In this document: piece after piece, positions 7,437-29,386 of the stretch | How the letters are laid out: each line of letters begins with the position of its first letter | How positions within the stretch are numbered: position 1 is the stretch's first letter | Assembly: GCF_024700885.2 (NCBI RefSeq) | Contig: NZ_CP117014.1 | DNA: 64,000 nucleotides | Source of the DNA: Escherichia coli | GTDB lineage: Bacteria; Pseudomonadota; Gammaproteobacteria; Enterobacterales; Enterobacteriaceae | Direction: 5' to 3' (one strand) | Position numbers and translations under genes: made by a program | The notes under the pieces: generated by a model | Seen by the model: the letters and a program-made list of their open reading frames with translations, nothing else | Databases searched by the model: none | What the model was told of the DNA's origin: nothing

Positions 7437-8178
7437 TTACCAGGCACTGCGTGAGGCGGCAGAGAAAGCAACGTGGGGAGACTGGGACTCATATAAACCA
7501 CACCGTGGCGCACGTGGTTATAAGGTCCGACTAAGTGGTCAGGCCATTGCGCAACACGTTCTGAAAAACAACGCTGAATTTATTGCTGCCTTTAATCCAA
7601 AGGTTGCTTTGGCATTACTGGATGAACTGGAAAGAAACCAGCAATACATCAAACGCCGCGACCAGAAGAACGAGGATATTGCTCTTACGGTTGGGAAGCT
7701 GAGAGTTGAGCTTGAGGAAGTAAAACAACACGCTGAAGAATTATCCGAAACCAAGGCTGTTCGTAACCAATGGCGGCCAGATATTTGCCCAATAACCGGA
7801 CGTGCATTTTTCATGTGGATTGAGCATCCAACATTGGGAAATGTGCCGACATATGGTGGCCCATTAGATAGTTACACCATTCCAACAAAGGACGGTGACG
7901 GTGAGTTTTCATGTGAGCGTTACGATCATGATTTTGGCGGTTGGGTAGAAAGCGAATGTCTTGGGTTATATCTGATTGATGATAGAGAACAATGCAGGGT
8001 CTACGAACTGGAGGAGCGCGTTAAGGAACTGGATGCTCGGGAAATATCGCTCCCGGAACGTAGCAGCATGCTTCATCGAACAGATTTTCACGATGATTAC
8101 CAAACGGTAATGGCATACAAAGTTTCTGAAGTCATCGATGCAATCCGCGCTACTGGCATTCGCATCAAAGGAGAGTGA
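7423..8178 (+). CDS. Ead/Ea22-like protein
   Basis: GTG start with RBS AAGGAGG; N-terminal paralogy to 5775-6488. Confidence 0.45.
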   Translation: MSKINYQALREAAEKATWGDWDSYKPHRGARGYKVRLSGQAIAQHVLKNNAEFIAAFNPKVALALLDELERNQQYIKRRDQKNEDIALTVGKLRVELEEVKQHAEELSETKAVRNQWRPDICPITGRAFFMWIEHPTLGNVPTYGGPLDSYTIPTKDGDGEFSCERYDHDFGGWVESECLGLYLIDDREQCRVYELEERVKELDAREISLPERSSMLHRTDFHDDYQTVMAYKVSEVIDAIRATGIRIKGE

Positions 8179-8179
8179 G

Positions 8180-8590
8180 ATGAACGCTATAACCAAAGAA
8201 CGTATCAAATTATTCATTAAAAATCCGCTTGATAACGGACTTACTCGTGGCGAACAAATGGAACTGGCACGAATTGCTCTGGCATCGCTGGAAGCAGAGG
8301 CAGTTATGTTCTGTATATCAGGACAAAATGTAGATTCAGAAGAACATGTATCAACCAGCAAAGCGGTTGTTGATGCCTGGGTTGAAGAATGGAATCAGGT
8401 TGACGGAAGTCCTGGCGAACCACTGTACAAAACTATGCCACTCTACTATCACGCTGCCTTGCCAGCGCCGGTAGTGCCGGATGAAATGTATTGGCAGGAT
8501 GCGCCAGTTGAAGGCAGCAGCAAAGCGGCTGCATACGCTACAGGCTGGAACGCCTGCCGCGCCGCTATGCTTCATGGGAAAGGAGAGTGA
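8180..8590 (+). CDS. Hypothetical protein, N-terminal paralog of the 8866-10386 protein
   Basis: First 40 aa (MNAITKERIKLFIKNPLDNGLTRGEQMELARIALASLEA) nearly identical to 8866 ORF; about 90% DNA identity over roughly 120 bp. Confidence 0.45.
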   Translation: MNAITKERIKLFIKNPLDNGLTRGEQMELARIALASLEAEAVMFCISGQNVDSEEHVSTSKAVVDAWVEEWNQVDGSPGEPLYKTMPLYYHAALPAPVVPDEMYWQDAPVEGSSKAAAYATGWNACRAAMLHGKGE

Positions 8591-8591
8591 T

Positions 8592-8855
8592 ATGGCAACT
8601 TTAACAAAAAAAGAACGGGCATGGTTGAACGAATTACAGGACGTTCTTGATCGCTGTCCATCACCGAAAAAAATTGGTTTTTACACCATTGGCGATAAAA
8701 GCATTTACCTGTATGACCTGCGCCGCATGGATGAAATCATGGAGACTCTTGATAATCGTTCGTCGATGGATTGGTGTGTTGCTGTTCATGATATGAATGC
8801 AGGGTTTGATGAAAAGATTTTGTTCCCCTCATCAGTTGAAAGCACTGCGGGTTAA
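8592..8855 (+). CDS. Hypothetical small protein
   Basis: ORF starting MATLTKKERAWLNEL at an ATG directly after the previous stop. Confidence 0.35.
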   Translation: MATLTKKERAWLNELQDVLDRCPSPKKIGFYTIGDKSIYLYDLRRMDEIMETLDNRSSMDWCVAVHDMNAGFDEKILFPSSVESTAG

Positions 8856-8865
8856 GGAGTAACAC

Positions 8866-10386
8866 ATGACCACTATTACCAAAGAACGTATTGAATTGTT
8901 CATTAAAAATCCGCTTGAAAACGGGCTTACCCGTGGTGAACAAATGGAACTGGCACGGATTGCGCTGGCATCGCTGGAAGCAGATCCAGTTAAACGAGTT
9001 AACTCAGATCAGATGCGCCGAGTCTGCTTAGAAGCTAATCGCCATTTAGATAAATATGACGCGATGGCGAAAGAGGTAAATAAGTTGCTTGGACGCATCG
9101 CCCCGCCAGCGCCGGTAGTGCCGGAAGAAGCAACTCCGGAAAACGTAGAAATGCTCTCTGGCTATGTTTCCACGTACAAATTAACCGATAGCGAGCGCGA
9201 TATTGCTGCCGAAATATGGAACGCCTGCCGCACCGCCATGCTTCAGTCCGGAAACTTTCGGGAAAGCAAGAATTCGTCAACCAATAATTTTCGGGAAATC
9301 GCGGAAACGTCAACCAACTATCCGGTAATTCCTAGTGAGGTGTTGTCAGCAATCCTGAAGTTTGCCAGAGTTCGTGCCGATTTCGATGATTTTGACGGTG
9401 ACAGGCGAGGTATCGGTGATTGTCTGGATGAGGCCGAGCAAGAGCTTATCGTTACCATTAACAAATATGCCAGTCAGTTGGCAGCAGAACCGATAGCGAC
9501 TAATGACGTTCGAGAGCAAACAGCCGTTCCGCCAATACAGGCTGATGTCGCGCAAGCAATTGAAAATCTCAAGCAGAAGTTAGTGGAATGCAATCGCTAT
9601 AACTACTGCGCAGATGCAGTTAAAGGCGTAGAGGATGCCAGCCGCGTCTTGGCACTCCAAAATCAAAATATGTCAGCACCGGTAACGCCGGAGGCCATTG
9701 AAAACGCAATTGAATATATCCGCAGTATCGCTTTTCACATCGATGAAGACGATTACCACGGCAAGCATATTGCGTATTTCATGCGACAAGCATTGGCCTG
9801 GCTGGAAGGGCATTCATGCAGCGACGACAGGCTGGGTAAGGCCGACAATCAACCCGCATCTGGTAACCAGTCTGCCGAATCCAATCGCGGTAATGAGTGG
9901 ACCGGCAATCCTGATATTGATAACGCCATCATCATGCTCGACCGCATAGATACGGCGGAAAGTTGCGATGATGACCGTATTGAGGCCGTTAAGGCTGTGT
10001 TGCGTAGACTGGCAGGCAACTATCCGGATATTCCGGATAGTTCGGTGCCAGCGCCAGGAAAGGGCGTCACCGGTGAACGTATCCGCATTAAGCCGCATGT
10101 TTATCGCGAACTGGTTAACCGTCTCCACGATACAGCGATCAAGTGTGCTGGCACCCAGCAATTACGAGAAAGAATTAGCCGTGTTTTGGGCGACGTTATT
10201 ACACCAGATCATCATAAACAAGCCGAGAAAAGTGGCCTGGAAAGGTGTCGCCTTGAGGCGGCATTAAACATTAAGCCGGGGCATACGCTTGGCATTATTG
10301 ATGCACTATTGGTTCATAAGATGGCCAGGGCTTTATTGCCGCTGGTGGCTGAAAAGCATGAGGTGGACCATGCCAACGAAAGCTGA
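8866..10386 (+). CDS. Hypothetical 506-aa modular protein
   Basis: N-terminal module shared with 8180 ORF; C-terminal PHVYRELVNRLHDTAIKCAGTQQLRERI module shared with 1139-1750 protein; RBS AAGGAG. Confidence 0.45.
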   Translation: MTTITKERIELFIKNPLENGLTRGEQMELARIALASLEADPVKRVNSDQMRRVCLEANRHLDKYDAMAKEVNKLLGRIAPPAPVVPEEATPENVEMLSGYVSTYKLTDSERDIAAEIWNACRTAMLQSGNFRESKNSSTNNFREIAETSTNYPVIPSEVLSAILKFARVRADFDDFDGDRRGIGDCLDEAEQELIVTINKYASQLAAEPIATNDVREQTAVPPIQADVAQAIENLKQKLVECNRYNYCADAVKGVEDASRVLALQNQNMSAPVTPEAIENAIEYIRSIAFHIDEDDYHGKHIAYFMRQALAWLEGHSCSDDRLGKADNQPASGNQSAESNRGNEWTGNPDIDNAIIMLDRIDTAESCDDDRIEAVKAVLRRLAGNYPDIPDSSVPAPGKGVTGERIRIKPHVYRELVNRLHDTAIKCAGTQQLRERISRVLGDVITPDHHKQAEKSGLERCRLEAALNIKPGHTLGIIDALLVHKMARALLPLVAEKHEVDHANES

Positions 10387-10654
10387 ATTACAGGTGCGCG
10401 TAGATGAGCTTGAAAAAGAGAACGCGAGCCTCAAAAAAATGCTGTCGCGGGCGGAAAGGGAATTATCAGGCAAATTATTGCCAGAAGAACTGCCACCAGC
10501 AGATATACCTGATCGAGTGTCCTGGTGGATGAAGTATTTCCGTGCACCGTGGGAGGCGTTTTGGTGCTACGACCATCGCAGATGGTGTGATGAGCTTGAT
10601 AGCAGTTTCCCCTATTTTGCAGAAGGGAACTCTTGCCCTGAATGTAGGCGTTAA
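10370..10654 (+). CDS. Small Cys-motif protein (tandem paralog 1)
   Basis: Ends WCYDHRRWCDELDSSFPYFAEGNSCPECRR; paralogous to next ORF. Confidence 0.4.
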   Translation: MPTKAELQVRVDELEKENASLKKMLSRAERELSGKLLPEELPPADIPDRVSWWMKYFRAPWEAFWCYDHRRWCDELDSSFPYFAEGNSCPECRR

Positions 10655-10959
10655 TGATGACCGGCGAGCTTTATTTTAAAATGGCACGGGAGCGGCGTGT
10701 GCATCTGGATCGGATATTTCATCTCCAGAAGAGAGTAGAAGAACTGGAACGTCGTCTGAACTGTTATCCTGTTGATATGGTGTCTGCAATACCGCCGATT
10801 CCAATAGAAATGCAGATCCGCCTATGGATGGAAGAATATGGAATGCCGTGGGAGATATTTTTCTGCTTCGACCATAAACAGTGGGTAGATGAGCTGGATA
10901 ATAGTTTCCCATATTTCACAGAGAACACATGCCCAGTATGCAGGAAGAACGGAATATGA
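10654..10959 (+). CDS. Small Cys-motif protein (tandem paralog 2)
   Basis: Ends FCFDHKQWVDELDNSFPYFTENTCPVCRK. Confidence 0.4.
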   Translation: MMTGELYFKMARERRVHLDRIFHLQKRVEELERRLNCYPVDMVSAIPPIPIEMQIRLWMEEYGMPWEIFFCFDHKQWVDELDNSFPYFTENTCPVCRKNGI

Positions 10960-11480
10960 CAAAATTTGGAAAGCTGGAAGCTCATTTGCTAACTCGCAAC
11001 TACCGCCATGATATACACCCATATAGACAGTGGATCGATGAAAGCGAAGGAGTAGTTACATTCCCTCTCTACAGGTTTGATGGGATGTTGGCTGGGTATC
11101 AGACATATAGACCAGGTGCACCTAAGCAGCATAGCAATCCGAAGATGGCCCGGTATTTCACGCGATCACACGGCAGACAGTTACTTTGGGGAACCTATCT
11201 TCCTTTAAAAGATGGCCCAATATGGATAACTGAGTCTATTTTTAAGAGCGCAGCTGTACACAACGCGGGCGGCAATTCGTGGGCGCTGTTAGGTTCAACT
11301 TTCTCCGCAGGATTACGCCGTCAACTTGCGATGCTGCCGTATGACTTTCGCGTAATAGGTGACAATGATGCGGCTGGTGAATCACTTGTGAAGTCTTTCG
11401 GAAAAGGTTTTGTGGCCCCGGATCTTGACGAGCTACAACCACATGAAGTGTCTCATTTGATTTTTAGCCATAGCCAATAA
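10956..11480 (+). CDS. Stand-alone Toprim-domain protein
   Basis: ESIFKSAAVHNAG ... VIGDNDAAGE resembles the Toprim conserved Glu and DxD motifs; ATGA overlap with the previous stop. Confidence 0.45.
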   Translation: MTKFGKLEAHLLTRNYRHDIHPYRQWIDESEGVVTFPLYRFDGMLAGYQTYRPGAPKQHSNPKMARYFTRSHGRQLLWGTYLPLKDGPIWITESIFKSAAVHNAGGNSWALLGSTFSAGLRRQLAMLPYDFRVIGDNDAAGESLVKSFGKGFVAPDLDELQPHEVSHLIFSHSQ

Positions 11481-11690
11481 GCATCTCTCCCCTTTGAGGT
11501 CACAATTAGTGGCCTTAAACAATGTGTTTTCTACCTCGATTTAGCCTTTATTATCGTTTTGCATTTCTCTAATCCGGGCAACGAGGTTACGCTGATTCGT
11601 TGGTGATGAATAGTAGCAAAGCGCACAAAATCATCTGCGGTGGTTGATGTACGTAACGCGTTTGCACCAAATGTGTCTCTTTAATGTATA

Positions 11691-11706
11691 CTGTATAAAT
11701 GAACAG
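11691..11706 (+). promoter_or_regulatory. LexA (SOS) box upstream of humD
   Basis: CTGTATAAATGAACAG fits CTGT-N8-ACAG, 22 bp upstream of the humD ATG. Confidence 0.6.
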
Positions 11707-11727
11707 TATTATTGAGGTGAAAACGCT

Positions 11728-12117
11728 ATGGGCTTCCCTTCTCCTGCGGCGGACTATGTTGAAAGCCGAATTTCTCTTGATCAGCAACTAATCAGGCATC
11801 CATCAGCGACATACTTCATGCGGGCGGCAGACAGCCATCACCGTGAGGGAATATTGCAGGGTGCTTTGCTGGTGGTTGATTCTTCGCTTACTCCAGTTGA
11901 TGGTTCGCTGCTTGTGTGCGCTATGGAGGGAGAATATCGCGTAAAAAGATACCGGAAGTATCCGCGCCAGCACCTGGAGGATTTAAGCACCGGGAAGAAA
12001 GAGGCGTTACCAGTAGATGACGATGGTTACACGGGTAGTAATGCTGTTTTTGGTGTGATCACCCACATTATCAATGACGCCAGGGGCGGTGAATTTGATG
12101 ATAGTCCTGCTATATGA
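11728..12117 (+). CDS. humD: HumD (UmuD-prime homolog, S24 peptidase-like)
   Basis: 129 aa starting MGFPSPAADYVE; P1 synteny humD-phd-doc; LexA box upstream. Confidence 0.65.
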   Translation: MGFPSPAADYVESRISLDQQLIRHPSATYFMRAADSHHREGILQGALLVVDSSLTPVDGSLLVCAMEGEYRVKRYRKYPRQHLEDLSTGKKEALPVDDDGYTGSNAVFGVITHIINDARGGEFDDSPAI

Positions 12118-12251
12118 TTTGTTTTCAGAGAAACCATAGAGAGGCATGACTGGATCTATATCGCCCTGGCCATTTAAATGATTCCTCCCATTAGACGCGG
12201 TTACTCACTTGAAGATAAGATGAGGTTATAATTCTCTTTTTAGGTACGCGA

Positions 12252-12674
12252 ATGAGTTCGTCTGCTTTTGTCACTGTTGTCACTGGAGTAAGCGTTTTTG
12301 TCCTAGGTCGACTCATCATCAAGGGGGTTGAGTCTTACATTTCATTCAAGGAACAGTTGGGGGAAATATCGCATCTGTTATTGTCTAACCAAGCAAAGCT
12401 ATCGAATCCCCGCTCTGACTTAAAACAAGAAATCATCCATGATTTGAAAGATGCGGCAGCACAGTTACGGGTGAAGTACGAACTATTACCTTTCTATATC
12501 AAAATGTTACACATCGGTTTTCGCCTTGTTCCATCAGAAACTGAAATTCGTAAAGCGGCGCAAGAATTGAATCTGATAGCCTCGATACATGATGGTAAAA
12601 CCGGAGAGCTGCCATATGAGCACATAGCCAAGATTGGATTACTGCTCAGAATTCCAACCACTTATTCTGCTTAA
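12252..12674 (+). CDS. Moron: membrane-anchored protein inserted between humD and phd
   Basis: N-terminal TM helix FVTVVTGVSVFVLGRLII; own TATAAT at 12226-12231; AT-richer than flanks; P1 has humD directly followed by phd. Confidence 0.5.
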   Translation: MSSSAFVTVVTGVSVFVLGRLIIKGVESYISFKEQLGEISHLLLSNQAKLSNPRSDLKQEIIHDLKDAAAQLRVKYELLPFYIKMLHIGFRLVPSETEIRKAAQELNLIASIHDGKTGELPYEHIAKIGLLLRIPTTYSA

Positions 12675-12782
12675 TCCCAGCAATTGCAAGACTGCATCTC
12701 GAGGATTTAAGGCACCAAGAAGTGGTATTCAGCATCATTAAAACCTATAATTGCGTACACATAACGAGCACACGAGGTGTTT

Positions 12783-13004
12783 ATGCAATCCATTAACTTC
12801 CGTACCGCGCGCGGCAACCTTTCTGAAGTGCTCAACAATGTTGAAGCCGGGGAAGAGGTTGAAATCACCCGCAGAGGCCGTGAGCCAGCAGTAATTGTCA
12901 GCAAGGCTACTTTTGAAGCCTACAAAAAAGCGGCGCTGGATGCCGAATTTGCATCCCTGTTTGACACCCTGGACTCCACCAACAAGGAACTGGTTAACCG
13001 ATAA
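12783..13004 (+). CDS. phd: Phd antitoxin
   Basis: [73 protein letters not shown] matches my memory of P1 Phd across the full length. Confidence 0.85.
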
Positions 13005-13384
13005 TGAGGCATATATCACCGGAAGAACTTATTGCGCTTCATGATGCGAATATAAGCCGCTACGGCGGCCTGCCGGGAATGTCAGATCCGGGTAGGGCAG
13101 AGGCCATTATCGGGAGAGTTCAGGCCAGAGTTGCCTACGAAGAGATCACCGACCTTTTCGAAGTCTCCGCCACCTACCTGGTGGCTACGGCGAGAGGGCA
13201 TATATTCAATGATGCCAATAAGCGTACCGCGCTAAACAGTGCGCTGCTATTTCTACGCCGTAACGGTATACAGGTATATGATGATCCCGTGCTGGTGGAG
13301 CTTGCAGTGGGGGCTGCAACTGGTGAAATCCCCGTATCTTCAGTAGCGAAAAAACTACGTGAACTATATGGTTCCAATATTTGA
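13004..13384 (+). CDS. doc: Doc toxin (Fic-fold kinase)
   Basis: 126 aa with [10 protein letters not shown] Fic-type motif; near-identical to recalled P1 Doc; ATGA overlap with phd. Confidence 0.85.
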
Positions 13385-13385
13385 A

Positions 13386-13415
13386 AAGAAGCCCGCTCAA
13401 CCAGGCGGGCTTCTT
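13386..13415. terminator. Bidirectional rho-independent terminator between convergent doc and 13420 gene
   Basis: AAGAA-GCCCGC-tcaaccag-GCGGGC-TTCTT hairpin with flanking A/T runs. Confidence 0.55.
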
Positions 13416-13419
13416 ACTA

Positions 13420-14514
13420 TCACTCAATGATTTTTTCTGCTGTCAGCCAGCTAATTTCTTGCCTGTCTTTCGGCGGTTTTAGCATGTGGGCGTATTCAGC
13501 GACATTCTCCCACGGAATTGTTTTTGCCCACTCAACGATAGCATTGTGATCTGCAGTGAAGAGTGGAATGGTGTGCGATTTCAACCATTCTAATGTCGTG
13601 ACGCCATGTTTTTTGGCGTGGTGCTGCGCATGATGCCGGGCTATCACTCGTAATGGTATTGTCCATTCACTACCATCAGGCATCGAAAAGCGCATTGTCT
13701 TCGGCATATCTGATTCAAGAACAGCCTCCCTAATACCAGGGAACTCACCAAGAATCATACGACGATAGTCATCACTATTTCGCCCGCCATACCTTTCGGC
13801 AAAATGATCAAGATATTCTTGGGTAATAAATGGTGAATCCTCCGCACTCAGCTTAATGGCTTTATATACACCACTCGGATTATCTTCAGCTAAAGCACGT
13901 CCATGATGTGAATCATAAAAAAAGCCTATTTCCTCTGGTGACGGAATTGAAGTGAGCAATATGCGTGAATCACCACTAGTCATGCTTGCCCACACAATGC
14001 TGTATGCCCGATCGCTGATATGTGCGGAATCCACAATAATGAATAAAAGATGGTCGGCGTAGTGACCTGCAATGCTATCTTCATAGTTAAGGCGGAAGTT
14101 ACAAAAGCACATTCCCCAAAATTCATTGAACATCAGACCGCTATCACCGACCTTAAAATACTCAATGATAAAAGGTTGTTTTTTCAGCAATGCCTCCCAA
14201 CATTGCCACACATATGCAACAATTCCTCTTTTGCAAACATTTGATTTTGGATAAACAATTACTGTCCGGGAATCAGGATACATAATCGTATAAAGGGTAC
14301 TAATAACAGCAAGCACTTGCGGTCGTCCGATCCCATACGGAGTGGTGACAGTAGCTTTTGCATTATTGGGCTGTATAGCTTCAACAATTTGTTGTTGCTG
14401 GTGGCTTAAATCAATATCAAACAATTCTTTTGCTGCCAGTACCCAATTGTCTTTATATTTCTCCACCAGCGACAGCCAGCGCGGATCTTTATAAATATTG
14501 CTCTTAGTCGCCAT
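13420..14514 (-). CDS. Terminase large-subunit (PacB) paralog with degenerate Walker A/B motifs
   Basis: Aligns with PacB (19603-21111): DPRW, SHQQQQI, FYDSHH, SPF, EYGGR shared; Walker A GHGTGKS replaced by PYGIGRP, Walker B ILDEAS by IVDSAH; divergent shorter C-terminus. Start set at MATKSNIYKD (ATG 14514). Confidence 0.6.
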   Translation of the reverse strand: MATKSNIYKDPRWLSLVEKYKDNWVLAAKELFDIDLSHQQQQIVEAIQPNNAKATVTTPYGIGRPQVLAVISTLYTIMYPDSRTVIVYPKSNVCKRGIVAYVWQCWEALLKKQPFIIEYFKVGDSGLMFNEFWGMCFCNFRLNYEDSIAGHYADHLLFIIVDSAHISDRAYSIVWASMTSGDSRILLTSIPSPEEIGFFYDSHHGRALAEDNPSGVYKAIKLSAEDSPFITQEYLDHFAERYGGRNSDDYRRMILGEFPGIREAVLESDMPKTMRFSMPDGSEWTIPLRVIARHHAQHHAKKHGVTTLEWLKSHTIPLFTADHNAIVEWAKTIPWENVAEYAHMLKPPKDRQEISWLTAEKIIE

Positions 14515-15271
14515 CTGCCACTTCCTTAACTTCTTCTTTGGCCTGTTCTGCAATCGCCGCACGGCATTTCGCCCTGGCTGTAGCGATTGCTTCAGCTCGC
14601 ACATCGTCTGGAATCGTTGACGTGATATACATATCCAGTTCTTCGGCACGGAATACTGTTTGGTCCAGATATTCGCGTAGCATCCAGGTAAATTCGAAAT
14701 CACACGCGATAATCTCTGCGCTACCTTCTGCACCATTTGGGAAATGAATAAATGCCTGTTTAGCCAAACCGATAACACGACATGCGGTTGCCAAAACAGC
14801 GACAACTAGGTTTACATTTTCACACGCTACGGGCTGGTTAACGCCGGAGATTACTCCATTTAACTGTCGGTTATATGGAAGGTAGTTTGAGATGCGTTCT
14901 ACGCGCCATGTGCCAGTCAGGCTGCCATTTTTAAATATAATTGGTGTAACGGATAGCCCAAGCTCGCGTATAAGTCGTTGCGCTATAGCAGGATCATTAA
15001 ACAGGTCTAATGCTACACATTCGAAAGACTGCGCAAGGGCAAACAGTTCTTCCAGAGAGTAGTCTTTGCCCCTGGCGGTGATGTAACGACGAACGCCGCT
15101 GTCTGCATCACTCCATATAGCTACGCCATGCTCTTCATTCAGCTCTTCATTAAAGCCGAGATACGTCATGATAGTGCGTTCAATCGTGTCAAACGGCAGT
15201 GACATGTCGGCGTTAACAGCCACCAGCAGGCCATTACGCAAGCGGTATTGAATTGTTTTAGTGCTTTCCAT
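14504..15271 (-). CDS. Hypothetical 255-aa protein
   Basis: ORF tightly coupled within the six-gene minus-strand operon. Confidence 0.4.
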   Translation of the reverse strand: MESTKTIQYRLRNGLLVAVNADMSLPFDTIERTIMTYLGFNEELNEEHGVAIWSDADSGVRRYITARGKDYSLEELFALAQSFECVALDLFNDPAIAQRLIRELGLSVTPIIFKNGSLTGTWRVERISNYLPYNRQLNGVISGVNQPVACENVNLVVAVLATACRVIGLAKQAFIHFPNGAEGSAEIIACDFEFTWMLREYLDQTVFRAEELDMYITSTIPDDVRAEAIATARAKCRAAIAEQAKEEVKEVADGD

Positions 15272-15277
15272 GTCAAA

Positions 15278-15718
15278 TCACTCCACAACAAACCAGTCAC
15301 AGGCCAGCAGGTCGCCAACTGAAGGCACCCACGGAACAACTACACCTTGTGCATTTTTTAAGGCGAAATAAGCACCATACGGAACGAGGTCGCCGGGGAA
15401 ATATCCCTTAATGGCTTCCATTCGTGCCGGGTACTGTCCTTCAGGAACCAGCCAGCAGAATTGGTTTTCGCCGTTCCACCCGCGTCGAGCAACTTTCTTG
15501 CCTTCCTTCAGCCACATCAGCGCGTCTGAAAAGTCGGCTGCTTCAAGGTCGATTTCTTCTTGCTGGGTGGTGATGCCACCAGCAGAAATAGTTACGCTCC
15601 CGGTAAGATTAATCATCACGCCGTTGTCATCCGTAATGATGACCGTGGTTCCATTTTTTTTGTGAGCTTTGTATTTGGGACGGAACTTAAAAAGCTCTTT
15701 CGTTGCCATGTTATTCAT
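15278..15718 (-). CDS. DUF2829-like protein (Tad2-like candidate) with N-terminal extension
   Basis: C-terminal half FSDALMWLKEGKKVARRGWNG...VPWVPSVGDLLACDWFVVE fits my recollection of the DUF2829 signature. Confidence 0.45.
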   Translation of the reverse strand: MNNMATKELFKFRPKYKAHKKNGTTVIITDDNGVMINLTGSVTISAGGITTQQEEIDLEAADFSDALMWLKEGKKVARRGWNGENQFCWLVPEGQYPARMEAIKGYFPGDLVPYGAYFALKNAQGVVVPWVPSVGDLLACDWFVVE

Positions 15719-15732
15719 AGTCTTTTCTCTGC

Positions 15733-16227
15733 TTATAACTTTTCGTACTGAAGCGGTGAACGCTTAATTTCAAAGTGGCCTTCCGATGTGCTACCAAAGC
15801 CACCAGCACCACGCTCCGTTTCGTTGAGTTCCTCAACCTCGACTAGTGAGACTTGTTCAACACGCTCAAAAATTCCTTGCATGACAGCCATTCCAGGCTT
15901 GAGACAAACGCCTTCCCCGCCGGGATCAGTAATCAGTTTTGCCATGATTTCGCCGCGATAATCGGAGTCGATAATTCCTACGCAGTTAGCCAGGCGAGTA
16001 TGTTTTTTGCAGCCCAATCCTGATCGCGGATAGAGTTTCAGACACCAGCCGGGCGGGATCTCCATAGCCAGTCCGGTATACACCCACCAGCTTGAGGAAA
16101 TTGCACCATTGCTATCGACGCATGGTTTTATTTCAACAGCCTCAAAATCCATCGCCGCCGATCCGGAGGTGGCATAAGCTGGAAGTTTTGCTGCCGGATG
16201 TAGGCGTTTCACTTTTACGTAAATCAT
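15733..16227 (-). CDS. dut: dUTPase (trimeric dUTP diphosphatase)
   Basis: Motifs SAAMDF, PRSG, GIIDSDYRGEI and RGAGGFGSTS. Confidence 0.75.
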   Translation of the reverse strand: MIYVKVKRLHPAAKLPAYATSGSAAMDFEAVEIKPCVDSNGAISSSWWVYTGLAMEIPPGWCLKLYPRSGLGCKKHTRLANCVGIIDSDYRGEIMAKLITDPGGEGVCLKPGMAVMQGIFERVEQVSLVEVEELNETERGAGGFGSTSEGHFEIKRSPLQYEKL

Positions 16228-16706
16228 TGTTTTTTAGCTCTCTGCGTGAAGGTGTAAACCCGACGTTTGATATGTGGAACGGTAGGAACAGGAAGACAGG
16301 AACTTTCAATAACTCCTTGCTCATCCAGCGATCGCACCGCCCGCAAGAACTGCGACGTGTCGCCGCCAAACTGGCGGGCATAGGTGCTGCCGTTATGAAG
16401 TATTTGAGCTATTACCCGAGTTTTTGTCTGGCTGTCACGATATGCGAATAGCCGCACGGCCTCTTCTGGCGCAATCGCTAACTGATAGCCTTTCCCGGCA
16501 CGGTGTCGAATGAATCCATGCGCCAGTAGGTTTTTGAGTTCGTTACGAGTGCGAACAGATCCGTAACCCAGGAAGTGTGGATTGATAACGACTGGCTTAA
16601 ACCATTCCGTAGGTGCTTTAGCTAATAGAGCTAACAGCTTCCCGGATAATTCTGGATAGGAAGACGGGTAACAATTCAGAGATGGGTAATAAGTTTTCAC
16701 CGACAC
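16224..16706 (-). CDS. Hypothetical 160-aa protein
   Basis: ORF with 4-bp overlap to the downstream gene. Confidence 0.35.
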   Translation of the reverse strand: MSVKTYYPSLNCYPSSYPELSGKLLALLAKAPTEWFKPVVINPHFLGYGSVRTRNELKNLLAHGFIRHRAGKGYQLAIAPEEAVRLFAYRDSQTKTRVIAQILHNGSTYARQFGGDTSQFLRAVRSLDEQGVIESSCLPVPTVPHIKRRVYTFTQRAKKQ

Positions 16707-17041
16707 CCCCTTGCAGGATATCGACCGGCATTAGTATCCGGTGCAATAAAGCCGGTAGTGGGGCGAGTGAAAGCGAGATTAATCTTCTCGACCATAGTGC
16801 GATAATTTTCCTGATAGTGGGCCAGGAGTTTTTCGGCGGCAATGATGGTTACTTTCCGGACGTAGCTTTCTGCTTCCTCCAGATTTCGCCAGTTTTTTTC
16901 GAGGGTAAACACAGGGACGGCCTCAAGCCCGGTCATGATGCCGAACACAACGACAGCATGACTGTTCTTAACACCAGCGGCGAAGGTTACGGTGTAACCA
17001 TCCACCTTGAAGCGTCTTGATTCCGTGATTTGACTCTGCAA
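16697..17041 (-). CDS. Hypothetical 114-aa protein, first gene of the operon (P1 c8 position)
   Basis: ORF preceded on its upstream side by the TGTTAGAA operator-like motif at 17099-17106. Confidence 0.35.
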   Translation of the reverse strand: MQSQITESRRFKVDGYTVTFAAGVKNSHAVVVFGIMTGLEAVPVFTLEKNWRNLEEAESYVRKVTIIAAEKLLAHYQENYRTMVEKINLAFTRPTTGFIAPDTNAGRYPARGCR

Positions 17042-25687: not shown

Positions 25688-26191
25688 ACTTGCCGGGTAC
25701 GTCTCCGGCGAGGGCTTCCACCTCCGTATGCTTTTCGGCGCACCGCGCCCTGGCTGCAATTCGGTAACAGGGGATGCACAACCCTGGCTTCCAGCGTGAT
25801 TAGCGCCTTCAGCATGACGGGATATACCCGTTACAAGAAGTTCTCCCAGGATGCCATTAAGCAATGGCTGTTACGCGGGAAGGACGCAACAGGTAAGGGC
25901 GCTGACCAGAAAGACCTGACCCTTCTCATTCATCTGGTTAATCACACCAGCGCCCTTGCCTGTTATGCCTCCCCGTTCCCTAATACACAGACGGGGACAC
26001 TCTGCGGTCGATTTTTTTGACGGGGGACGACTCATACCCCGTGGCGTCTGGCTTCTTAGGCCGCTACCATCATCAGATCATCGTTTGCATTTACTTTAAT
26101 GGTCAGTTTCTAAACCGCCGCAAAGTCGCTAACCATGACGAAAACCCTAAAAAAGCCCACCCGAAGATGGGCAAATACGCTACATCTCACA

Positions 26192-26270
26192 CAAGAAAGA
26201 AGCCGACTGCCTGAGCTGGATTCACTTTCAAATGCCCGCTGAAAGGGATCACAAGTCGGCTTCTTTCTTG
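26192..26270. ncRNA. Long perfect hairpin (17-bp stems, about 45-nt loop), candidate structured RNA
   Basis: CAAGAAAGAAGCCGACT ... AGTCGGCTTCTTTCTTG in a 1.2-kb ORF-poor region next to the tRNA array. Confidence 0.3.
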
Positions 26271-26756
26271 ATGCGGCACTCTCTCCGCCCGTCACCGCTC
26301 TGTCTCGGTTGTCGCGTTTGCCACGCCAGCCGTAACGAGGTTTAAAGTCTTTACACGTTTCCATCACTCGACTGCCGTCTGTGGCTGTTCGTTGCAGCGG
26401 GGGTGCCTCCCCCTGGGGATATCCCCGGCCTTACCCCATTCTTTCAAGACACAATGCAAGGCCACATCCGCATAGGTGCATTACCGCAACATTAAGGAGA
26501 CTCAGGGCAAAAGGTAACCGCCACAAAAATCCCTATGCCTCCTTAATGTTGAAGATGTGCATTGATGATTAGATGCAGCATGTACCGTTACTCTCTGCCG
26601 GACCATCATCAATGAACACCTTAAAAAGACCTTCCGTGGCTCAACATGTATTGTCGTTTACTCCGCAAAGTGCTCTCTCTGAAACCACTTTCCGCACTAA
26701 ACCTGCTGAACTTTGGCCTGCACGGTGCCAAAGCGTGCTCTTGCATTACTATACAT

Positions 26757-26920
26757 TTCTAACACTTTAATTTGTTAAATGCTGGTGGGCGAACAATAAC
26801 CAATAAGTGACTATCAAGCCCAGCAAGCGAAACGTGGGTACCGCCCACCAGCAAGGAAAATTCTATGTTAAGTTATCTTCACAATCAATACATTCGAATT
26901 GTGATTTTAGATTTCTAACA
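26757..26920. promoter_or_regulatory. Two operator-like motifs flanking an 11-bp perfect inverted repeat
   Basis: TTCTAACA at 26757-26764 and 26913-26920; GCTGGTGGGCG ... CGCCCACCAGC between them. Confidence 0.35.
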
Positions 26921-26922
26921 CA

Positions 26923-28131
26923 TTATTTCCCATAAAGATCTTCTACACCCCCATTCTTCTTATCCCATTCGTTCGCCCATACCCGGCAAGCGTCAATGAT
27001 TTCCTGACGACGATCTCCTTGCATGAACGGGATGCTTTCATGGAAACAGCTTGGAATGCAGGCCACACTGAATACAGTATCAAACTCCGTCTGCTTGATT
27101 GCCTCCAGCGTCTCCGGACGCATTTTTAATTCATCGATTGGCGCATCCTTAGAGTCCATAATCCGGCGATATAAGCGCGGAAAATCCGTCTCCAGATACG
27201 CCATAATTTTATCTGCGAGACATTCGTCTATGTCGGTATTCCAGTCCTTTTCGAAGCCCGGCAGGCGATAGTAAAGCGGCGTTCCCCATACCGATGGGAT
27301 CACATCCATCGTTAACAGGCGATTGGTTCTGATTTGTTGATGGTAATTAGCCGTCAGCAGTGCTTCGCCACGCTGCCCAGTTTCCGCAACCAGGCCGTGC
27401 GGATACTCATGGATGTAGGCAATGGCATCCCTTCCATCATACATAAGTGGAAATGTCTCTGGTCTTTGTCCCATGCCACAAGCACGGTTCAGATCGTGAC
27501 CAAGCTGTGAGCACTCTCGCTTTAATGTTTCGATAATGCTCTGCGCTGTAGCCAACTTTTTACGCAGTGTGACGCCTTCGCCTTGATAATCAATGCATTG
27601 CTGATTGAGCTTGGTTAAACGCTCTTTTAGTTCCCGGCGCTCTCTTTTCAGCGTGCGGTTATCCTTCTCCGCAACATCCAGCCGCTTTGTCAGGCTTGGC
27701 GGATAGTCTTTTTTGTAACGGTTCAAATCGGCTTCGGCAGATTTACGCAGTGTATTTGCCTGTTCAAGACGCGCTTCCAGATTGCCGATCTCATTACGCA
27801 TATTCGCGGCAAATTGATTAACTGCATCACCCAGGCTTTCAACTGTCGCTGATACGCCTGTGACTTGTGAAAAACGGATCAAGCCATCATTAACTGCTTG
27901 TTGGTATTCCTCAAACTGATCCACCAGCTTATTGTAATCAACTGCCCCATCATCAAGCAGCTTGTTGATTTCCGCCACCAGGTTATCTGTAGTGGCAATG
28001 ACACTCTCGTGCAGTCGCTTTGACAGGTCATCACCCGGATTCCGTTTCTGTATAAGAGCGATTTGTGTGCGCAGCGTTTCAATTGCTGTCGAGATAATTT
28101 CCAGATTAGAAGTATCAGTGTGTTGACTCAT
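26923..28131 (-). CDS. Hypothetical 402-aa protein: N-terminal coiled coil plus unrecognised C-terminal domain
   Basis: ORF with operator-like motif (28162-28169) in its promoter; no motif I can assign to a known family. Confidence 0.5.
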   Translation of the reverse strand: MSQHTDTSNLEIISTAIETLRTQIALIQKRNPGDDLSKRLHESVIATTDNLVAEINKLLDDGAVDYNKLVDQFEEYQQAVNDGLIRFSQVTGVSATVESLGDAVNQFAANMRNEIGNLEARLEQANTLRKSAEADLNRYKKDYPPSLTKRLDVAEKDNRTLKRERRELKERLTKLNQQCIDYQGEGVTLRKKLATAQSIIETLKRECSQLGHDLNRACGMGQRPETFPLMYDGRDAIAYIHEYPHGLVAETGQRGEALLTANYHQQIRTNRLLTMDVIPSVWGTPLYYRLPGFEKDWNTDIDECLADKIMAYLETDFPRLYRRIMDSKDAPIDELKMRPETLEAIKQTEFDTVFSVACIPSCFHESIPFMQGDRRQEIIDACRVWANEWDKKNGGVEDLYGK

Positions 28132-28212
28132 TGCTATTCCCGTTACTTTGTTAAATTATTTTTCTAACATATTTTATTAGTTTGATGACAGTATCGAAAG
28201 ATGCAATAAACA

Positions 28213-28238
28213 AAAAACCCGCTAATTGGCGGGTTTTT
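28213..28238. terminator. Rho-independent terminator separating the 104-aa gene from the 402-aa gene
   Basis: AAAAACCCGC-taattg-GCGGGTTTTT. Confidence 0.6.
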
Positions 28239-28244
28239 ATGCAA

Positions 28245-28559
28245 TTACTGTGTTGCAGCCTGATAAATAAGATACGCGATAAATACAGGTACGATGGCCC
28301 ATTGCAGCAATGAAAGTAGCCTCATTACTGTTATTGGGGTAACTCCATCCACGTATTGTTTCTCTGACATTTTCCCGAACCAACTAACCGACAACAGTGC
28401 CGAGTTTTCCCCCAATTCCAGCTCTCTGAGAGCTTCACGGATTAACGGCGCTGTCACAGCCTTAACCGGTGTGCTCAACGTGATACTCCGCGTCCTCCCC
28501 GCATCGTCAGCGAACGCCAGACTCACATAATATTTTTTGCTCAATGTACAAACTCCCAA
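28245..28559 (-). CDS. Small protein with C-terminal transmembrane helix
   Basis: C-terminal LLSLLQWAIVPVFIAYLIY; start uncertain, may be the shorter MSEKQYV form. Confidence 0.35.
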   Translation of the reverse strand: MGVCTLSKKYYVSLAFADDAGRTRSITLSTPVKAVTAPLIREALRELELGENSALLSVSWFGKMSEKQYVDGVTPITVMRLLSLLQWAIVPVFIAYLIYQAATQ

Positions 28560-28741
28560 TCATCAGCGCTTGCACTTTCCGGGGTTATGTGAACCTTATC
28601 GCCAGTAACAATATTGCGAGCTTCAAAACTTCCATTGATACGTTTCGAGATCTCAATACATAGAGCCTGCTGCCATGAGCGACGACGAGCGATAGCATTA
28701 GTTCCTGCAGGGATAAGTTCTGCCACGTTAAGTAACCGCAA
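28541..28741 (-). CDS. Hypothetical 66-aa protein
   Basis: ORF immediately downstream of the VRR-NUC gene; short overlap with the next ORF. Confidence 0.3.
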   Translation of the reverse strand: MRLLNVAELIPAGTNAIARRRSWQQALCIEISKRINGSFEARNIVTGDKVHITPESASADDWEFVH

Positions 28742-28755
28742 AACGATTTCTCCGT

Positions 28756-29250
28756 TTAATCAAGACAAACATACTCCGTGATAGCTTTTATGGCTTCAGC
28801 GGCACTGCGCGCCTCAAAGCAGTAGTAACCGGCTTCTGTGAGGCGAGTCATCCAGACGAGTTGTTCGGGAGTCAGGCGATTTCTCCCATGTTTCATCTCA
28901 ATGCGCATTCCGTGGTATCCCCCACAAGCAAGGTCTATAGAAAGATCGGGATATCCCTTCTTTTGGCCCTCTGCCACCATTTTTATTGCCGTCCTTATGC
29001 CTCGCAGGCCACCGTTTGGAGTGGCGTGAGTATGCTCATACACATAACGCATATTGCGATACATCCAGTCCAGGACGCGAACCTGCTCGTAATGCTCATG
29101 GTTCCTTTTGATTAGATCTGGGTTTTTCTCCAGTTCTCTAAGAGCTGCGGCATGTGGGGATGTTTCAGAATATTCACTGCGACGCCTTCTCTTTCGCGCT
29201 ATTTTTCTAACACACCCATTGATAGTAAATATGCGAAATAATAACAACAA
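28756..29250 (-). CDS. VRR-NUC domain nuclease (PD-(D/E)xK fold); true start probably internal
   Basis: GYPDLSIDLACGGYHGMRIEMKHG...LTPEQLVWMTRLTEAG fits the VRR-NUC pattern; operator-like motif at 29205-29212 lies inside the longest ORF, so the real start is likely Met63/Met67 (about 29064). Confidence 0.55.
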   Translation of the reverse strand: MLLLFRIFTINGCVRKIARKRRRRSEYSETSPHAAALRELEKNPDLIKRNHEHYEQVRVLDWMYRNMRYVYEHTHATPNGGLRGIRTAIKMVAEGQKKGYPDLSIDLACGGYHGMRIEMKHGRNRLTPEQLVWMTRLTEAGYYCFEARSAAEAIKAITEYVCLD

Positions 29251-29386
29251 CGTTAGATTTGTAAAACAAGAGAGATACTACTCAAGGATGGTCTATATGC
29301 AACAGGTCGGATTTGCTTTTAGAGTAAAGAGTGACCTTAATCAACAAGGAGGGTAAATCGCATGGCATTTACCCAACCTGTTATTT

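What the first reader, a model, noticed from the sequence alone, without database searches (positions are those of the whole stretch)
11691..12674. SOS-controlled humD followed by an inserted membrane-protein moron ahead of phd-doc
The sequence CTGTATAAATGAACAG directly upstream of humD is a good LexA box. In P1, humD is followed directly by phd, but here a 140-aa gene with an N-terminal TM helix, its own TATAAT and lower GC sits between them. A single membrane protein next to an addiction module is a typical superinfection-exclusion or abortive-infection candidate.
Basis: partly seen in the sequence, partly recalled or inferred. Interest (0 to 1): 0.5.

Follow-up and report, generated by a model that had tools for sequence, protein, structure and literature searches.

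The report
Membrane-protein gene cassette inserted between humD and phd
A P1-like phage-plasmid of the D6 lineage has a 600-base self-contained gene cassette wedged between its SOS-controlled humD gene and its phd-doc addiction module; the cassette encodes a small membrane-anchored protein of a large, unnamed family that turns up again and again in the accessory "hotspots" of prophages and plasmids, so it is a reasonable but untested candidate for a new phage-exclusion gene.

Summary
The window is a D6-like (P1 subgroup 2) phage-plasmid. A strong LexA box (11689-11708) precedes humD (11728-12117). Its 16-nt core is identical to the annotated P1 site. phd-doc (12783-13384) keeps its own promoter.

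About 600 bp (12118-~12716) lie between humD and phd. P1, P7, SJ46, RCS47 and hundreds of P1-like plasmids lack this stretch. Only D6 and about 33 PLSDB plasmids carry it. It holds a 140-aa ORF (12252-12674, identical to D6 orf109, "hypothetical").

The ORF is a real gene: dN/dS is 0.08-0.49. It has one N-terminal TM helix and a four-helix domain. It has no Pfam, NCBIfam or PADLOC match.

The family has more than 1000 50%-identity clusters. Members sit in the P2 gpA-portal hotspot, the P2 Z/fun position, the lambdoid P-nin region on the opposite strand, next to AbiD, and directly beside type II TA pairs. They travel with a conserved promoter. On plasmids they are bounded by a repeated ~45-nt palindromic element.

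The most likely function is a membrane-anchored exclusion or abortive-infection protein. That rests on context only (confidence about 0.45). The window copy carries substitutions at two near-invariant residues. Interest is moderate.

The parts
11689..11708 (+). LexA (SOS) box TACTGTATAAATGAACAGTA, 20 nt upstream of humD
   Evidence: It is the only match in the window to the 20-nt consensus at up to 3 mismatches, with 0 expected. The 16-nt core is identical to the annotated P1 LexA site.
11728..12117 (+). humD, UmuD'-like translesion-polymerase subunit, 129 aa
   Evidence: NCBIfam NF051876 HumD equivalog, 213.8 bits against a cut-off of 120; PHROG 811. About 95% nt identity to P1 humD.
12118..12716 (+). 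Inserted cassette (moron) of about 600 bp, absent from P1 and most P1-like elements
   Evidence: Alignments with P1, D6 and NZ_CP076307. Only D6 has it among 50,697 phage records. 33 of 1431 matching PLSDB records cover it. GC is 0.42.
12163..12188 (+). Degenerate remnant of the upstream 26-nt palindromic boundary repeat (CTGGCCATTTAAATGATTCCTCCCAT)
   Evidence: It aligns with CTGGACRTWCAG..TGTCCAG of the plasmid cassettes; my hand count is 13 of 26 positions, with the left arm kept. No intact core occurs in the window.
12192..12221 (+). Family-conserved promoter-like pair: TAGACG (-35), 18-nt spacer, TAAGAT (-10)
   Evidence: The homologous positions read TAGACA-17-TAGGAT in IncF, Salmonella and Serratia plasmids, TGGACA-17-TAGGAT in the P2-like prophage, and TAGACA-18-TAAGAT in the 48-kb phage-plasmid. 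This is a prediction only; it falls below the scan threshold.
12227..12232 (+).
   Evidence: I found no acceptable -35 at 16-18 nt on reading the sequence.
12242..12245 (+). Shine-Dalgarno AGGT, 6 nt before the ATG
   Evidence: Conserved as TAGGTAC or CAGGTGA in the homologues.
12252..12674 (+). 140-aa single-pass membrane protein gene (identical to D6 orf109; PHROG 7512, function unknown)
   Evidence: 100% aa identity to D6. dN/dS 0.08-0.49 in 15 pairs. TM segment at residues 5-23. AF2 pLDDT 86, helices 4-45, 59-77, 96-115 and 122-132. More than 1000 cluster representatives at E<=1e-3.
12672..12704 (+). Degenerate remnant of the downstream boundary repeat, starting with the stop codon (TAATCCCAGCAATTGC...)
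   Evidence: It aligns with TAATCCCCGCGCCAGC-CTGGACGTTC... of the plasmid cassettes.
12723..12751 (+). Pphd retained: -35 TGGTAT, 17-nt spacer, -10 TATAAT, followed by the Phd/Doc operator region
   Evidence: Collinear with the annotated P1 Pphd (TGGTGC-17-TATAAT). Homology to phd-doc on IncF plasmids starts at 12746.
12783..13004 (+). phd antitoxin, 73 aa
   Evidence: TIGR01552 48.1 bits against a cut-off of 20.8; PHROG 375.
13004..13384 (+). doc toxin, 126 aa, overlapping the phd stop by 1 nt
   Evidence: TIGR01550 118.7 bits against a cut-off of 38.65; PHROG 577.
13391..13406 (.). First G+C-rich hairpin after the LexA box, and the likely end of the humD-ORF-phd-doc transcript
   Evidence: Terminator scan; it was called on the - strand and is palindromic. 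No terminator-like structure lies between humD, the ORF and phd.

Best explanation
The locus is the humD-phd-doc cluster of a D6-lineage P1-like phage-plasmid. One complete, self-contained gene cassette has been inserted into it. The insertion point is the 12-nt gap between the humD stop codon and the -35 of the phd promoter.

SHOWN:
- The cassette is present or absent among close relatives.
- It has lower GC than its neighbours.
- It carries a promoter-like pair, a ribosome-binding site and the ORF, and all three are conserved wherever the gene occurs.
- The ORF is under purifying selection.
- It encodes a 140-aa protein with one N-terminal transmembrane helix followed by a helical bundle of about 115 aa.
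- On plasmids the same cassette is one unit of arrays. The units are separated by a repeated ~45-nt element with a 26-nt palindromic core. The window keeps only decayed remnants of that element on both sides.

INFERRED:
- The gene is transcribed constitutively in the lysogen from its own sigma-70 promoter.
- It is also transcribed by read-through from the LexA-repressed humD promoter after DNA damage, because no terminator intervenes.
- The protein sits in the inner membrane with its helical domain in the cytoplasm. The N-flank has almost no positive charge, and a conserved Lys (80% of family members) follows the helix.
- It acts in conflicts between mobile elements. Either it senses or blocks an incoming phage at the membrane (superinfection exclusion), or it kills or arrests the infected cell through its conserved G-x6-G/Q transmembrane helix (abortive infection).

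The functional step rests only on guilt by association.
For: Insertion and polymorphism:
-.

Real gene:
- dN/dS is 0.08-0.49.
- The family has 1001 or more cluster representatives, all about 140-150 aa.

Anatomy:
- One TM segment at residues 5-23.
- AF2 pLDDT 86.
- Family-wide flank charges are K+R 0.14 on the N side and 2.24 on the C side.
- Conserved TM residues are T8, G12, G19 and Q20.

Autonomous unit:
- The promoter-like pair is conserved in IncF, Salmonella, Serratia, 48-kb phage-plasmid and P2-like prophage copies.
- On reading, G+C-rich hairpins followed by T runs lie after the ORF in L004 and L022, and hairpins without a clear T run in L016, L042 and L046/47.

Context:
- Klebsiella P2-like prophage, between gpA and portal, beside a ParE-HTH pair. 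This locus is the published anti-phage hotspot (PMC9122126).
- High-GC P2-like prophage, between the tail-fibre genes and the sheath gene, which is the Z/fun position.
- Lambdoid prophages, on the opposite strand between P/DnaB and the nin genes.
- Salmonella plasmids, directly after AbiD (PADLOC 4.8e-59) or after Phd-ParE.
- IncX1 pSTY1, in the same array as a SLATT protein.
- A metagenomic plasmid, beside a MmeI-type restriction-modification enzyme.

Read-through:
- No terminator or stable hairpin lies in 12105-12260 or 12660-12790.
Against: - No experimental datum exists for any member. Every source calls them 'hypothetical'.
- No PADLOC, Pfam or NCBIfam match for the window protein or for 10 diverse members.
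- Accessory hotspots also hold non-defence cargo.
- The window/D6 protein has Arg at position 20 (Gln in 94% of the family), Ser at position 28 (Pro in 98%) and a one-residue deletion between them. It has also lost the flanking repeats, and I see no terminator after it as in other copies. This particular copy could be altered or inactive.
- Topology is not settled: the C-flank charges are nearly balanced (K+R 2.24, D+E 1.93).
Confidence: 0.45

Rival explanations
1. The protein is a functional companion of type II toxin-antitoxin modules. It might be a membrane anchor, sensor or modulator that tunes addiction or TA-mediated abortive infection, rather than an independent effector.
For: A type II TA pair lies within about 650 bp in 5 of about 13 independent contexts:
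- Phd-Doc in the window
- HTH-RelE/ParE in L003
- RHH-RelE/ParE in L005
- Phd-ParE in L016/L018
- ParE-HTH in L022
. Another ParE-HTH pair lies 2.7 kb away in Serratia.
Against: - The TA families, gene order, strand and spacing differ in every case.
- Many contexts have no TA nearby: the lambdoid prophages, L042, L007, L004 and L017.
- The cassette brings its own promoter and, by my reading, often its own terminator.
- P1 phd-doc works without it.
- TA modules are themselves enriched in the same accessory loci, which is enough to explain the co-location.
Confidence: 0.12
2. It is accessory cargo with a membrane role unrelated to phage or plasmid conflict, such as envelope-stress tolerance, a host-fitness or virulence trait (lysogenic conversion), or a scaffold for another membrane protein.
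For: - It is common on ColV/ColBM-type IncF virulence plasmids, next to the aerobactin locus.
- There are no defence-family hits.
- The fold is a generic helical bundle.
Against: - It occurs in very different hosts and elements (Legionella, Halomonas, Desulfuromusa, metagenomes), always as small-MGE cargo. That points to a function useful to the element itself.
- It has been placed repeatedly and independently in sites where exclusion genes are known.
Confidence: 0.2
3. In this element the gene is mainly an SOS-induced function that belongs with humD. It might, for example, delay division or alter the membrane during prophage induction. It would be expressed chiefly by LexA-controlled read-through.
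For: - It lies directly downstream of LexA-controlled humD with no terminator between them.
- umuD/umuC-like pairs lie 3.6-6 kb from homologues on Salmonella and Serratia plasmids.
- SOS-type dinQ/dqlB toxins occur in the same plasmid arrays.
Against: - Most homologues are nowhere near a LexA box or a umuD gene and carry their own promoter.
- The palindrome upstream of the plasmid copies is CTGGAC..GTCCAG, and the nearest CTGT..ACAG match there has a 7-nt spacer, not the 8-nt spacer of a LexA box, by my reading.
- Adjacency to humD is confined to the D6 lineage.
Confidence: 0.08
4. The window copy is a decaying passenger. It is intact as an ORF but functionally impaired, and is kept only because the insertion is recent.
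For: - It has substitutions at two of the three most conserved family positions (Q20R, P28S) and a deletion between them.
- Both boundary repeats are degenerate, and I see no terminator after the ORF.
- The 8-codon upstream extension seen in relatives is cut by a stop codon.
- All carriers are at least 98.9% identical, so they share recent ancestry.
Against: - The ORF is uninterrupted in D6 and in 31 of the 33 PLSDB copies from E. coli and Salmonella of many sources. The two pSa1423-type copies are the exceptions; the one I aligned shows indels.
- dN/dS against its nearest relatives is 0.20-0.30, not about 1.
- The gene looks mosaic: the 5' half is closest to L003 and the 3' half to L004. That suggests recombination between functional alleles rather than decay.
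Confidence: 0.15

Closest known systems
Phage P1 humD-phd-doc cluster (NC_005856, 87545-88647)
   Same: The 16-nt LexA box core is identical, humD is about 95% identical, Pphd has the same architecture, and phd and doc are the same genes.
   Different: In P1, phd starts 72 bp after humD. Here about 600 bp with an extra gene are inserted. The divergently transcribed P1 gene lxr is missing, and a primase-like toprim gene lies upstream instead.
Phage D6 orf109 (YP_009914786.1, 'hypothetical protein'), P1 subgroup 2
   Same: It is the same gene at the same site. The 663 bp between humD and phd are 99.8% identical, and the protein is 100% identical over residues 18-140 (the TM segment was masked in the tblastn).
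   Different: Nothing at the gene level. The flanks further out are mosaic: homology to D6 starts at window position 11657 and ends near 13341. No function has ever been assigned.
Classical prophage exclusion morons: P2 old/tin and fun(Z), lambda rexAB and ren, P1 sim
   Same: Homologues of the ORF occupy the same genomic slots: P2 gpA-gpQ, P2 tail fibre-sheath, and lambdoid P-nin. They are small autonomous transcription units inside or against phage operons (PMC9122126). That these slots hold tin/old is from the paper; Z/fun, ren and sim are from my own knowledge.
   Different: No sequence or specific fold similarity to any of them. No phenotype is known.
Pfam DUF4760 (small proteins with an N-terminal TM helix and a helical domain)
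   Same: Same size and architecture. Foldseek finds weak hits to DUF4760 proteins (E 5e-3 to 3, TM-score about 0.5).
   Different: Pfam does not match the window protein or 27 relatives. DUF4760 itself has no known function (one passing mention in the library).
Site-bounded gene modules: integron cassettes with attC, and Acinetobacter pdif modules
   Same: On plasmids the ORF is one unit of an array. One- or two-gene units are separated by copies of one repeat in the same orientation, starting right after the stop codon. Break-points between related plasmids fall at or inside the repeat.
   Different: The repeat (TAATCC..CTGGAC-N12-GTCCAG) resembles neither the attC core (GTTRRRY) nor dif/XerCD sites, by my own comparison from memory. 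No IntI is present. The units carry their own promoters and lie in both orientations. Recombination has not been shown, and the repeats could instead be operators.

Membership tests
SOS (LexA-regulated) gene | LexA box CTGT-N8-ACAG close to the consensus TACTG(TA)5CAGTA | tested here: met
   TACTGTATAAATGAACAGTA at 11689-11708, 3 mismatches, unique in 64 kb, 0 expected.
SOS (LexA-regulated) gene | The box overlaps or abuts the promoter of the regulated gene | tested here: inconclusive
   The box ends 20 nt before the humD ATG and contains TATAAA. The scan called no clean -35/-10 pair. The homologous P1 site is annotated as regulating lxr and humD.
SOS (LexA-regulated) gene | LexA binding and derepression after DNA damage | not testable with these tools
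   PMC9603915 states this only for P1 humD.
HumD / UmuD'-like | Match to the curated HumD equivalog above its cut-off | tested here: met
   NF051876, 213.8 bits against 120, full length 1-128.
Phd-Doc type II toxin-antitoxin | Phd-family antitoxin followed by an overlapping Doc-family toxin, both above curated cut-offs | tested here: met
   TIGR01552 48.1 bits against 20.8; TIGR01550 118.7 bits against 38.65. The phd stop and doc start overlap at 13004.
Moron (autonomous extra gene in a phage genome) | Present in some genomes and precisely absent at the same site in close relatives | tested here: met
   Absent in P1, P7, SJ46, RCS47 and NZ_CP076307; present in D6 and 33 PLSDB plasmids.
Moron (autonomous extra gene in a phage genome) | Nucleotide composition differs from the neighbours | tested here: met
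   GC 0.42 against 0.50 and 0.51; 8th percentile of 600-bp windows.
Moron (autonomous extra gene in a phage genome) | Own promoter | tested here: inconclusive
   The TAGACG-18-TAAGAT pair is conserved across unrelated contexts, but it is below the consensus-scan threshold and no transcript data are available.
Moron (autonomous extra gene in a phage genome) | Own terminator | tested here: not met
   There is none between the ORF and phd in the window. By my reading, hairpins follow the ORF in L004, L016, L022, L042 and L046/47.
Known anti-phage defence systems (PADLOC-DB v2.0.0) | Profile match to a known or candidate defence protein | tested here: not met
   0 families at E<=1 for the window protein and for 10 diverse relatives.
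Superinfection-exclusion / abortive-infection membrane proteins | Inner-membrane location | tested here: inconclusive
   One predicted TM helix. The family charge bias favours N-out/C-in. No topology predictor or experiment was available.
Superinfection-exclusion / abortive-infection membrane proteins | Reduces infection by other phages when expressed from the prophage | not testable with these tools
   No phenotype data were found in the library.
Pfam DUF4760 | Match to PF15956-type profile (Pfam-A scan) | tested here: not met
   No Pfam hit even at E<=10 for the query, and none in 28 members. Only a weak fold resemblance.
Holin / type I toxin-like small membrane toxin | Very small and mostly hydrophobic, with 1-3 TM helices making up most of the protein | tested here: not met
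   Only 19 of 140 residues are hydrophobic TM. The other ~115 aa form a soluble helical domain. Toxicity was not tested.

The most novel reading that the evidence does not exclude
The 140-aa protein founds a new, widespread (more than 1000 clusters) single-gene family of membrane-anchored anti-phage or anti-MGE effectors.

It spreads as a promoter-ORF cassette. The cassette belongs to a previously undescribed kind of cassette array on enterobacterial plasmids. In these arrays, conflict genes (AbiD, a SLATT protein, dinQ-like toxins, several other TM-plus-helical proteins) are shuffled by recombination at a repeated ~45-nt element with a 26-nt palindromic core. That element is found in about 1300 PLSDB plasmids.

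The D6 lineage captured one such cassette between humD and phd.
Probability: 0.2. Interest if true: 0.65.

Novelty: new member of a known kind. Interest (0 to 1): 0.42.

Why it matters
- If the protein blocks or aborts phage infection, it would add a compact single-gene defence family. Current defence catalogues miss this family, yet it sits on P1-like, P2-like and lambdoid prophages and on ColV/IncF/IncX plasmids of E. coli, Salmonella and Klebsiella.
- It would bear on phage-therapy host range and on competition among phage-plasmids.
- The placement allows a double input: constitutive expression plus SOS read-through. It also feeds transcription into the phd-doc addiction operon. That could be tested directly in D6 lysogens.
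- Separately, the repeat-bounded arrays on plasmids may reveal how small conflict genes are exchanged between plasmids and phage-plasmids.

Tried and rejected
- Pfam, NCBIfam, PADLOC and PDB sequence searches of the protein and of diverse relatives gave nothing.
- The hypothesis that the two other TM-plus-helical proteins of the pSTY1 array are distant paralogues was rejected: hhalign probability below 1% and no Pfam match.
- A three-taxon branch estimate suggested dN/dS of about 0.9 on the window lineage. I rejected it as unreliable because the gene is mosaic, 5' half L003-like and 3' half L004-like.
- I asked whether the palindrome upstream of the plasmid copies is a LexA box. It is not: the spacing is wrong (CTGT-N7-ACAG).
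- I looked for P1 C1 operators near the ORF. There are none in the whole window at up to 3 mismatches.
- Target-site duplications or repeats at the insert ends in the window: none were found.
- The search for related loci with broad alignments failed because no conserved stretch was available. The genome-contig scan gave only 4 loci.
- The D6 genome paper (PMC5800970) and the P1 genome paper (PMC523184) are not held.
- Literature searches for DUF4760, for the repeat sequence, and for humD with phage-plasmid defence returned nothing relevant.
- pSa1423-type copies show many indels across humD, the ORF and phd in the one I aligned. I treated them as low-quality sequence, not as evidence of decay.
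Full report
**What the window is.** The 2-kb stretch around the finding is 96.7% identical to phage D6. D6 is the type member of P1-like subgroup 2. The stretch matches P1, P7, SJ46, RCS47 and others only in two pieces that flank a gap. No single plasmid record covers more than 74% of window 8000-17000, so the element is a mosaic D6-like phage-plasmid. PMC9603915 notes that the humD-phd-doc cluster is one of the few blocks shared between P1 and subgroup 2. The same paper says that the pmgT...lxr-humD region is highly variable and that humD is LexA-regulated.

**Checking the observation.**
- The 20-mer TACTGTATAAATGAACAGTA (11689-11708) is the only match in 64 kb to the LexA consensus at up to 3 mismatches, with none expected by chance.
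- Its 16-nt core is identical to the site annotated as a LexA binding site in P1.
- The looser CTGT-N8-ACAG pattern alone would not be significant.
- humD (11728-12117) matches the curated HumD equivalog. phd (12783-13004) and doc (13004-13384) match their TIGRFAM models above the cut-offs.
- A 140-aa ORF lies between them at 12252-12674.
- In P1 the humD stop and the phd start are 72 bp apart. The three-way and four-way alignments show that about 600 bp (12118 to about 12716) are extra in the window and in D6.
- The phd promoter is untouched. It reads -35 TGGTAT (12723-12728), 17 nt, -10 TATAAT (12746-12751), collinear with the annotated P1 Pphd.
- GC is 0.42 in the insert, against 0.50 and 0.51 in its neighbours.

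All descriptive points are therefore confirmed.

**It is an insertion, and it is polymorphic.**
- Among 50,697 phage records only D6 has the insert, at DNA or protein level.
- In PLSDB, 33 records cover it.
- In an evenly spaced sample of the 1431 matching records, about a quarter have humD and phd adjacent within a 512-bp span.
- One of those is NZ_CP076307, the best overall match to this part of the window.
- 21 of 5426 complete E. coli genomes carry the insert, always on a plasmid.

**The gene is real.**
- Pairwise Nei-Gojobori dN/dS against five homologues from other contexts is 0.08-0.49.
- The protein has a single strongly hydrophobic segment at residues 5-23.
- AlphaFold2, run with a 10-sequence alignment, gives pLDDT 86. 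It shows one long helix (4-45) that continues from the membrane segment, and three further helices.
- A profile search of 1.8 billion cluster representatives finds 1001 proteins at E<=1e-3 and 225 at E<=1e-10. Almost all are 135-160 aa with the same layout.
- The best-conserved positions are G12, Q20, P28, Y82, P94 and L132. T8, G19, K24 and N107 are also conserved.
- The window/D6 protein is unusual here. It has Arg20, Ser28 and a one-residue deletion between them.

**No known family.**
- Pfam, NCBIfam, PADLOC and PDB sequence searches are empty for the query and for diverse relatives.
- PHROG 7512 ('unknown function') is the only hit.
- All database names are 'hypothetical protein'.
- Foldseek finds only uncharacterised relatives and faint DUF4760 resemblance.
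- BFVD returns nothing.

**Where the family lives.** This is the main new evidence. Homologues occur in these settings:

| Setting | Position of the homologue |
|---|---|
| Klebsiella P2-like prophage | Between the replication gene gpA and the portal gene, next to a ParE-HTH pair. Rousset et al. showed this locus to be an anti-phage hotspot holding old/tin (PMC9122126). |
| Lambdoid prophages (Atlantibacter and several IMG/VR contigs) | On the opposite strand, between P/DnaB and the NinB/DUF1367 nin genes |
| Legionella integrative element | After the integrase-primase core |
| 48-kb E. coli phage-plasmids | Beside a RelE/HTH pair |
| IncF plasmids, including ColV/ColBM types | Beside an RHH-RelE pair or dqlB toxins |
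| Salmonella plasmids | Directly after AbiD (PADLOC 4.8e-59) or after Phd-ParE |
| Serratia plasmid | Near ParE-HTH and umuDC |
| Metagenomic plasmid | After a MmeI-type restriction-modification enzyme and an ISL3 transposase |

The gene is therefore cargo of many kinds of mobile element. It has been placed repeatedly and independently in slots where exclusion or defence genes are known.

**It travels as a cassette.**
- DNA similarity between contexts starts about 90 nt before the ATG. That stretch includes a promoter-like pair: TAGACA or TGGACA, 17-18 nt, then TAGGAT or TAAGAT. In the window it reads TAGACG-18-TAAGAT at 12192-12221.
- A short leader and a Shine-Dalgarno sequence follow.
- By my reading, hairpins follow the ORF in several contexts. 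In the window none does, and neither intergenic RNA folds better than shuffled sequence.
- The nearest hairpin is after doc, at 13391-13406.
- The window copy can therefore be transcribed from its own promoter and by read-through from the LexA-controlled humD promoter. Its transcription also runs into phd-doc.

**A repeat that bounds the cassette (outside the window).**
- On plasmids the cassette is flanked by direct copies of an element of about 45 nt. Its consensus is TAATCCCCGCGCCAGC-CTGGACGTTCAGGTTATTCTGTCCAG. The 26-nt core has 7-bp inverted arms.
- In IncX1 pSTY1 six copies lie on one strand within 3.8 kb, against 0.05 expected by shuffling. They separate one- or two-gene units:
  - a 143-aa TM protein
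  - a SLATT protein with a small partner
  - a 171-aa TM protein
  - an 85-aa protein
  - a member of this family
.
- Break-points between related Salmonella plasmids fall at or inside the core.
- A 49-mer of the element matches 1296 PLSDB plasmids, mostly conjugative and mostly in unannotated intergenic DNA.
- In Klebsiella IncFIB plasmids a copy lies about 180 bp from a small tyrosine recombinase gene.
- The window insert aligns with a whole unit, including decayed remnants of both repeats at 12163-12188 and 12672-12704. No intact core exists in the window.
- I cannot tell whether the repeats are recombination sites or operators. I found no description of them in the literature.

**How it most likely works.**
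- Shown: the insertion, the coding constraint, the single TM segment with a helical domain, the conserved upstream signals, and the genomic contexts.
- Inferred:
  - expression in the lysogen, with an SOS boost
  - an N-out/C-in topology; family-wide K+R is 0.14 in the N-flank against 2.24 in the 15 residues after the helix
  - oligomerisation through the small-residue face of the helix (T8, G12, G19) with a conserved Gln at its cytoplasmic end
  - a role in excluding or aborting infection by competing phages
- I put about 0.45 on the conflict function as a whole. Within that I split it roughly evenly between exclusion at DNA entry and abortive membrane damage.
- Four rivals are listed with the results that would refute each: a TA companion, non-conflict cargo, an SOS-specific role, and a decaying copy.

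**Novelty and verdict.**
- The SOS box, humD and phd-doc are textbook P1 biology.
- The inserted gene is already deposited as D6 orf109 with no function.
- New here: it is a polymorphic cassette of a large unnamed MGE-borne family. Its context points to inter-element conflict, and on plasmids it belongs to repeat-bounded arrays.
- I class it as a new member of a known kind, a prophage moron and candidate exclusion gene.
- Interest is moderate. It is a good experimental target but not a surprise to a specialist.

Noticed in passing
L055 (pSTY1, NZ_CP009103.1) 25814-29630; L016/L017 5657-7997; L004 5915-9690; decayed remnants in window 12163-12188 and 12672-12704: A repeated element of about 45 nt (TAATCC..CTGGAC-N12-GTCCAG) bounds one- or two-gene units in the accessory regions of IncX1, IncF and other enterobacterial plasmids. 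Copies share one orientation within an array. pSTY1 has 6 copies against 0.05 expected, and a 49-mer matches 1296 PLSDB plasmids. Break-points between related plasmids fall at or inside it. It could be a recombination site or an operator, and I found no description of it.
   Followed up: partly
L055 25998-26429 (+) and 28101-28616 (+); L004 5380-5859 (-): Two further small proteins (143 aa and 171 aa) sit in the same plasmid array as the family member. Both have an N-terminal TM helix followed by a helical domain. They show no detectable homology to the family or to Pfam (hhalign probability below 1%).
   Followed up: partly
window 53762-55164, inside the ORF 53131-55740 (- strand): A 300-bp tandem repeat, 4.7 copies at 99% identity (100-aa units), lies inside an 869-aa tail-fibre gene (PHROG 2631/454).
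   Followed up: partly
window 10929-11480 (+), terminator-like hairpin at 11493-11519: A 183-aa toprim/primase-like ORF (PHROG 849) lies directly upstream of the humD control region. In P1, lxr and hot occupy this position. lxr, the divergent partner of the P1 LexA box, is absent here.
   Followed up: partly
window 12220-12231: The upstream ATG gives an in-frame 8-residue N-terminal extension (MIQSLGTI or MVKFPGEV) in many homologues. Here it opens a 3-codon mini-ORF (ATG AGG TTA TAA). L003 has a similar early stop. The protein in the window therefore starts at MSSS.
   Followed up: partly
window 12252-12674 compared with L003 and L004: The ORF looks mosaic. Its 5' half is 80-85% identical to the 48-kb phage-plasmid allele. 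Its 3' half is closer (78%) to the IncF allele. This suggests recombination among alleles.
   Followed up: partly
window 13420-14805 (- strand): The gene convergent with doc matches PHROG 5902 (unknown function) and weakly matches a large-terminase family. In P1 and D6, pdcA follows doc, so the region downstream of doc is also rearranged.
   Followed up: no
L007-L010 (JGI metagenome plasmid): A family member starts 2 nt after the stop of an ISL3 transposase gene, downstream of a MmeI-type restriction-modification enzyme. It may be a passenger gene of the IS.
   Followed up: no
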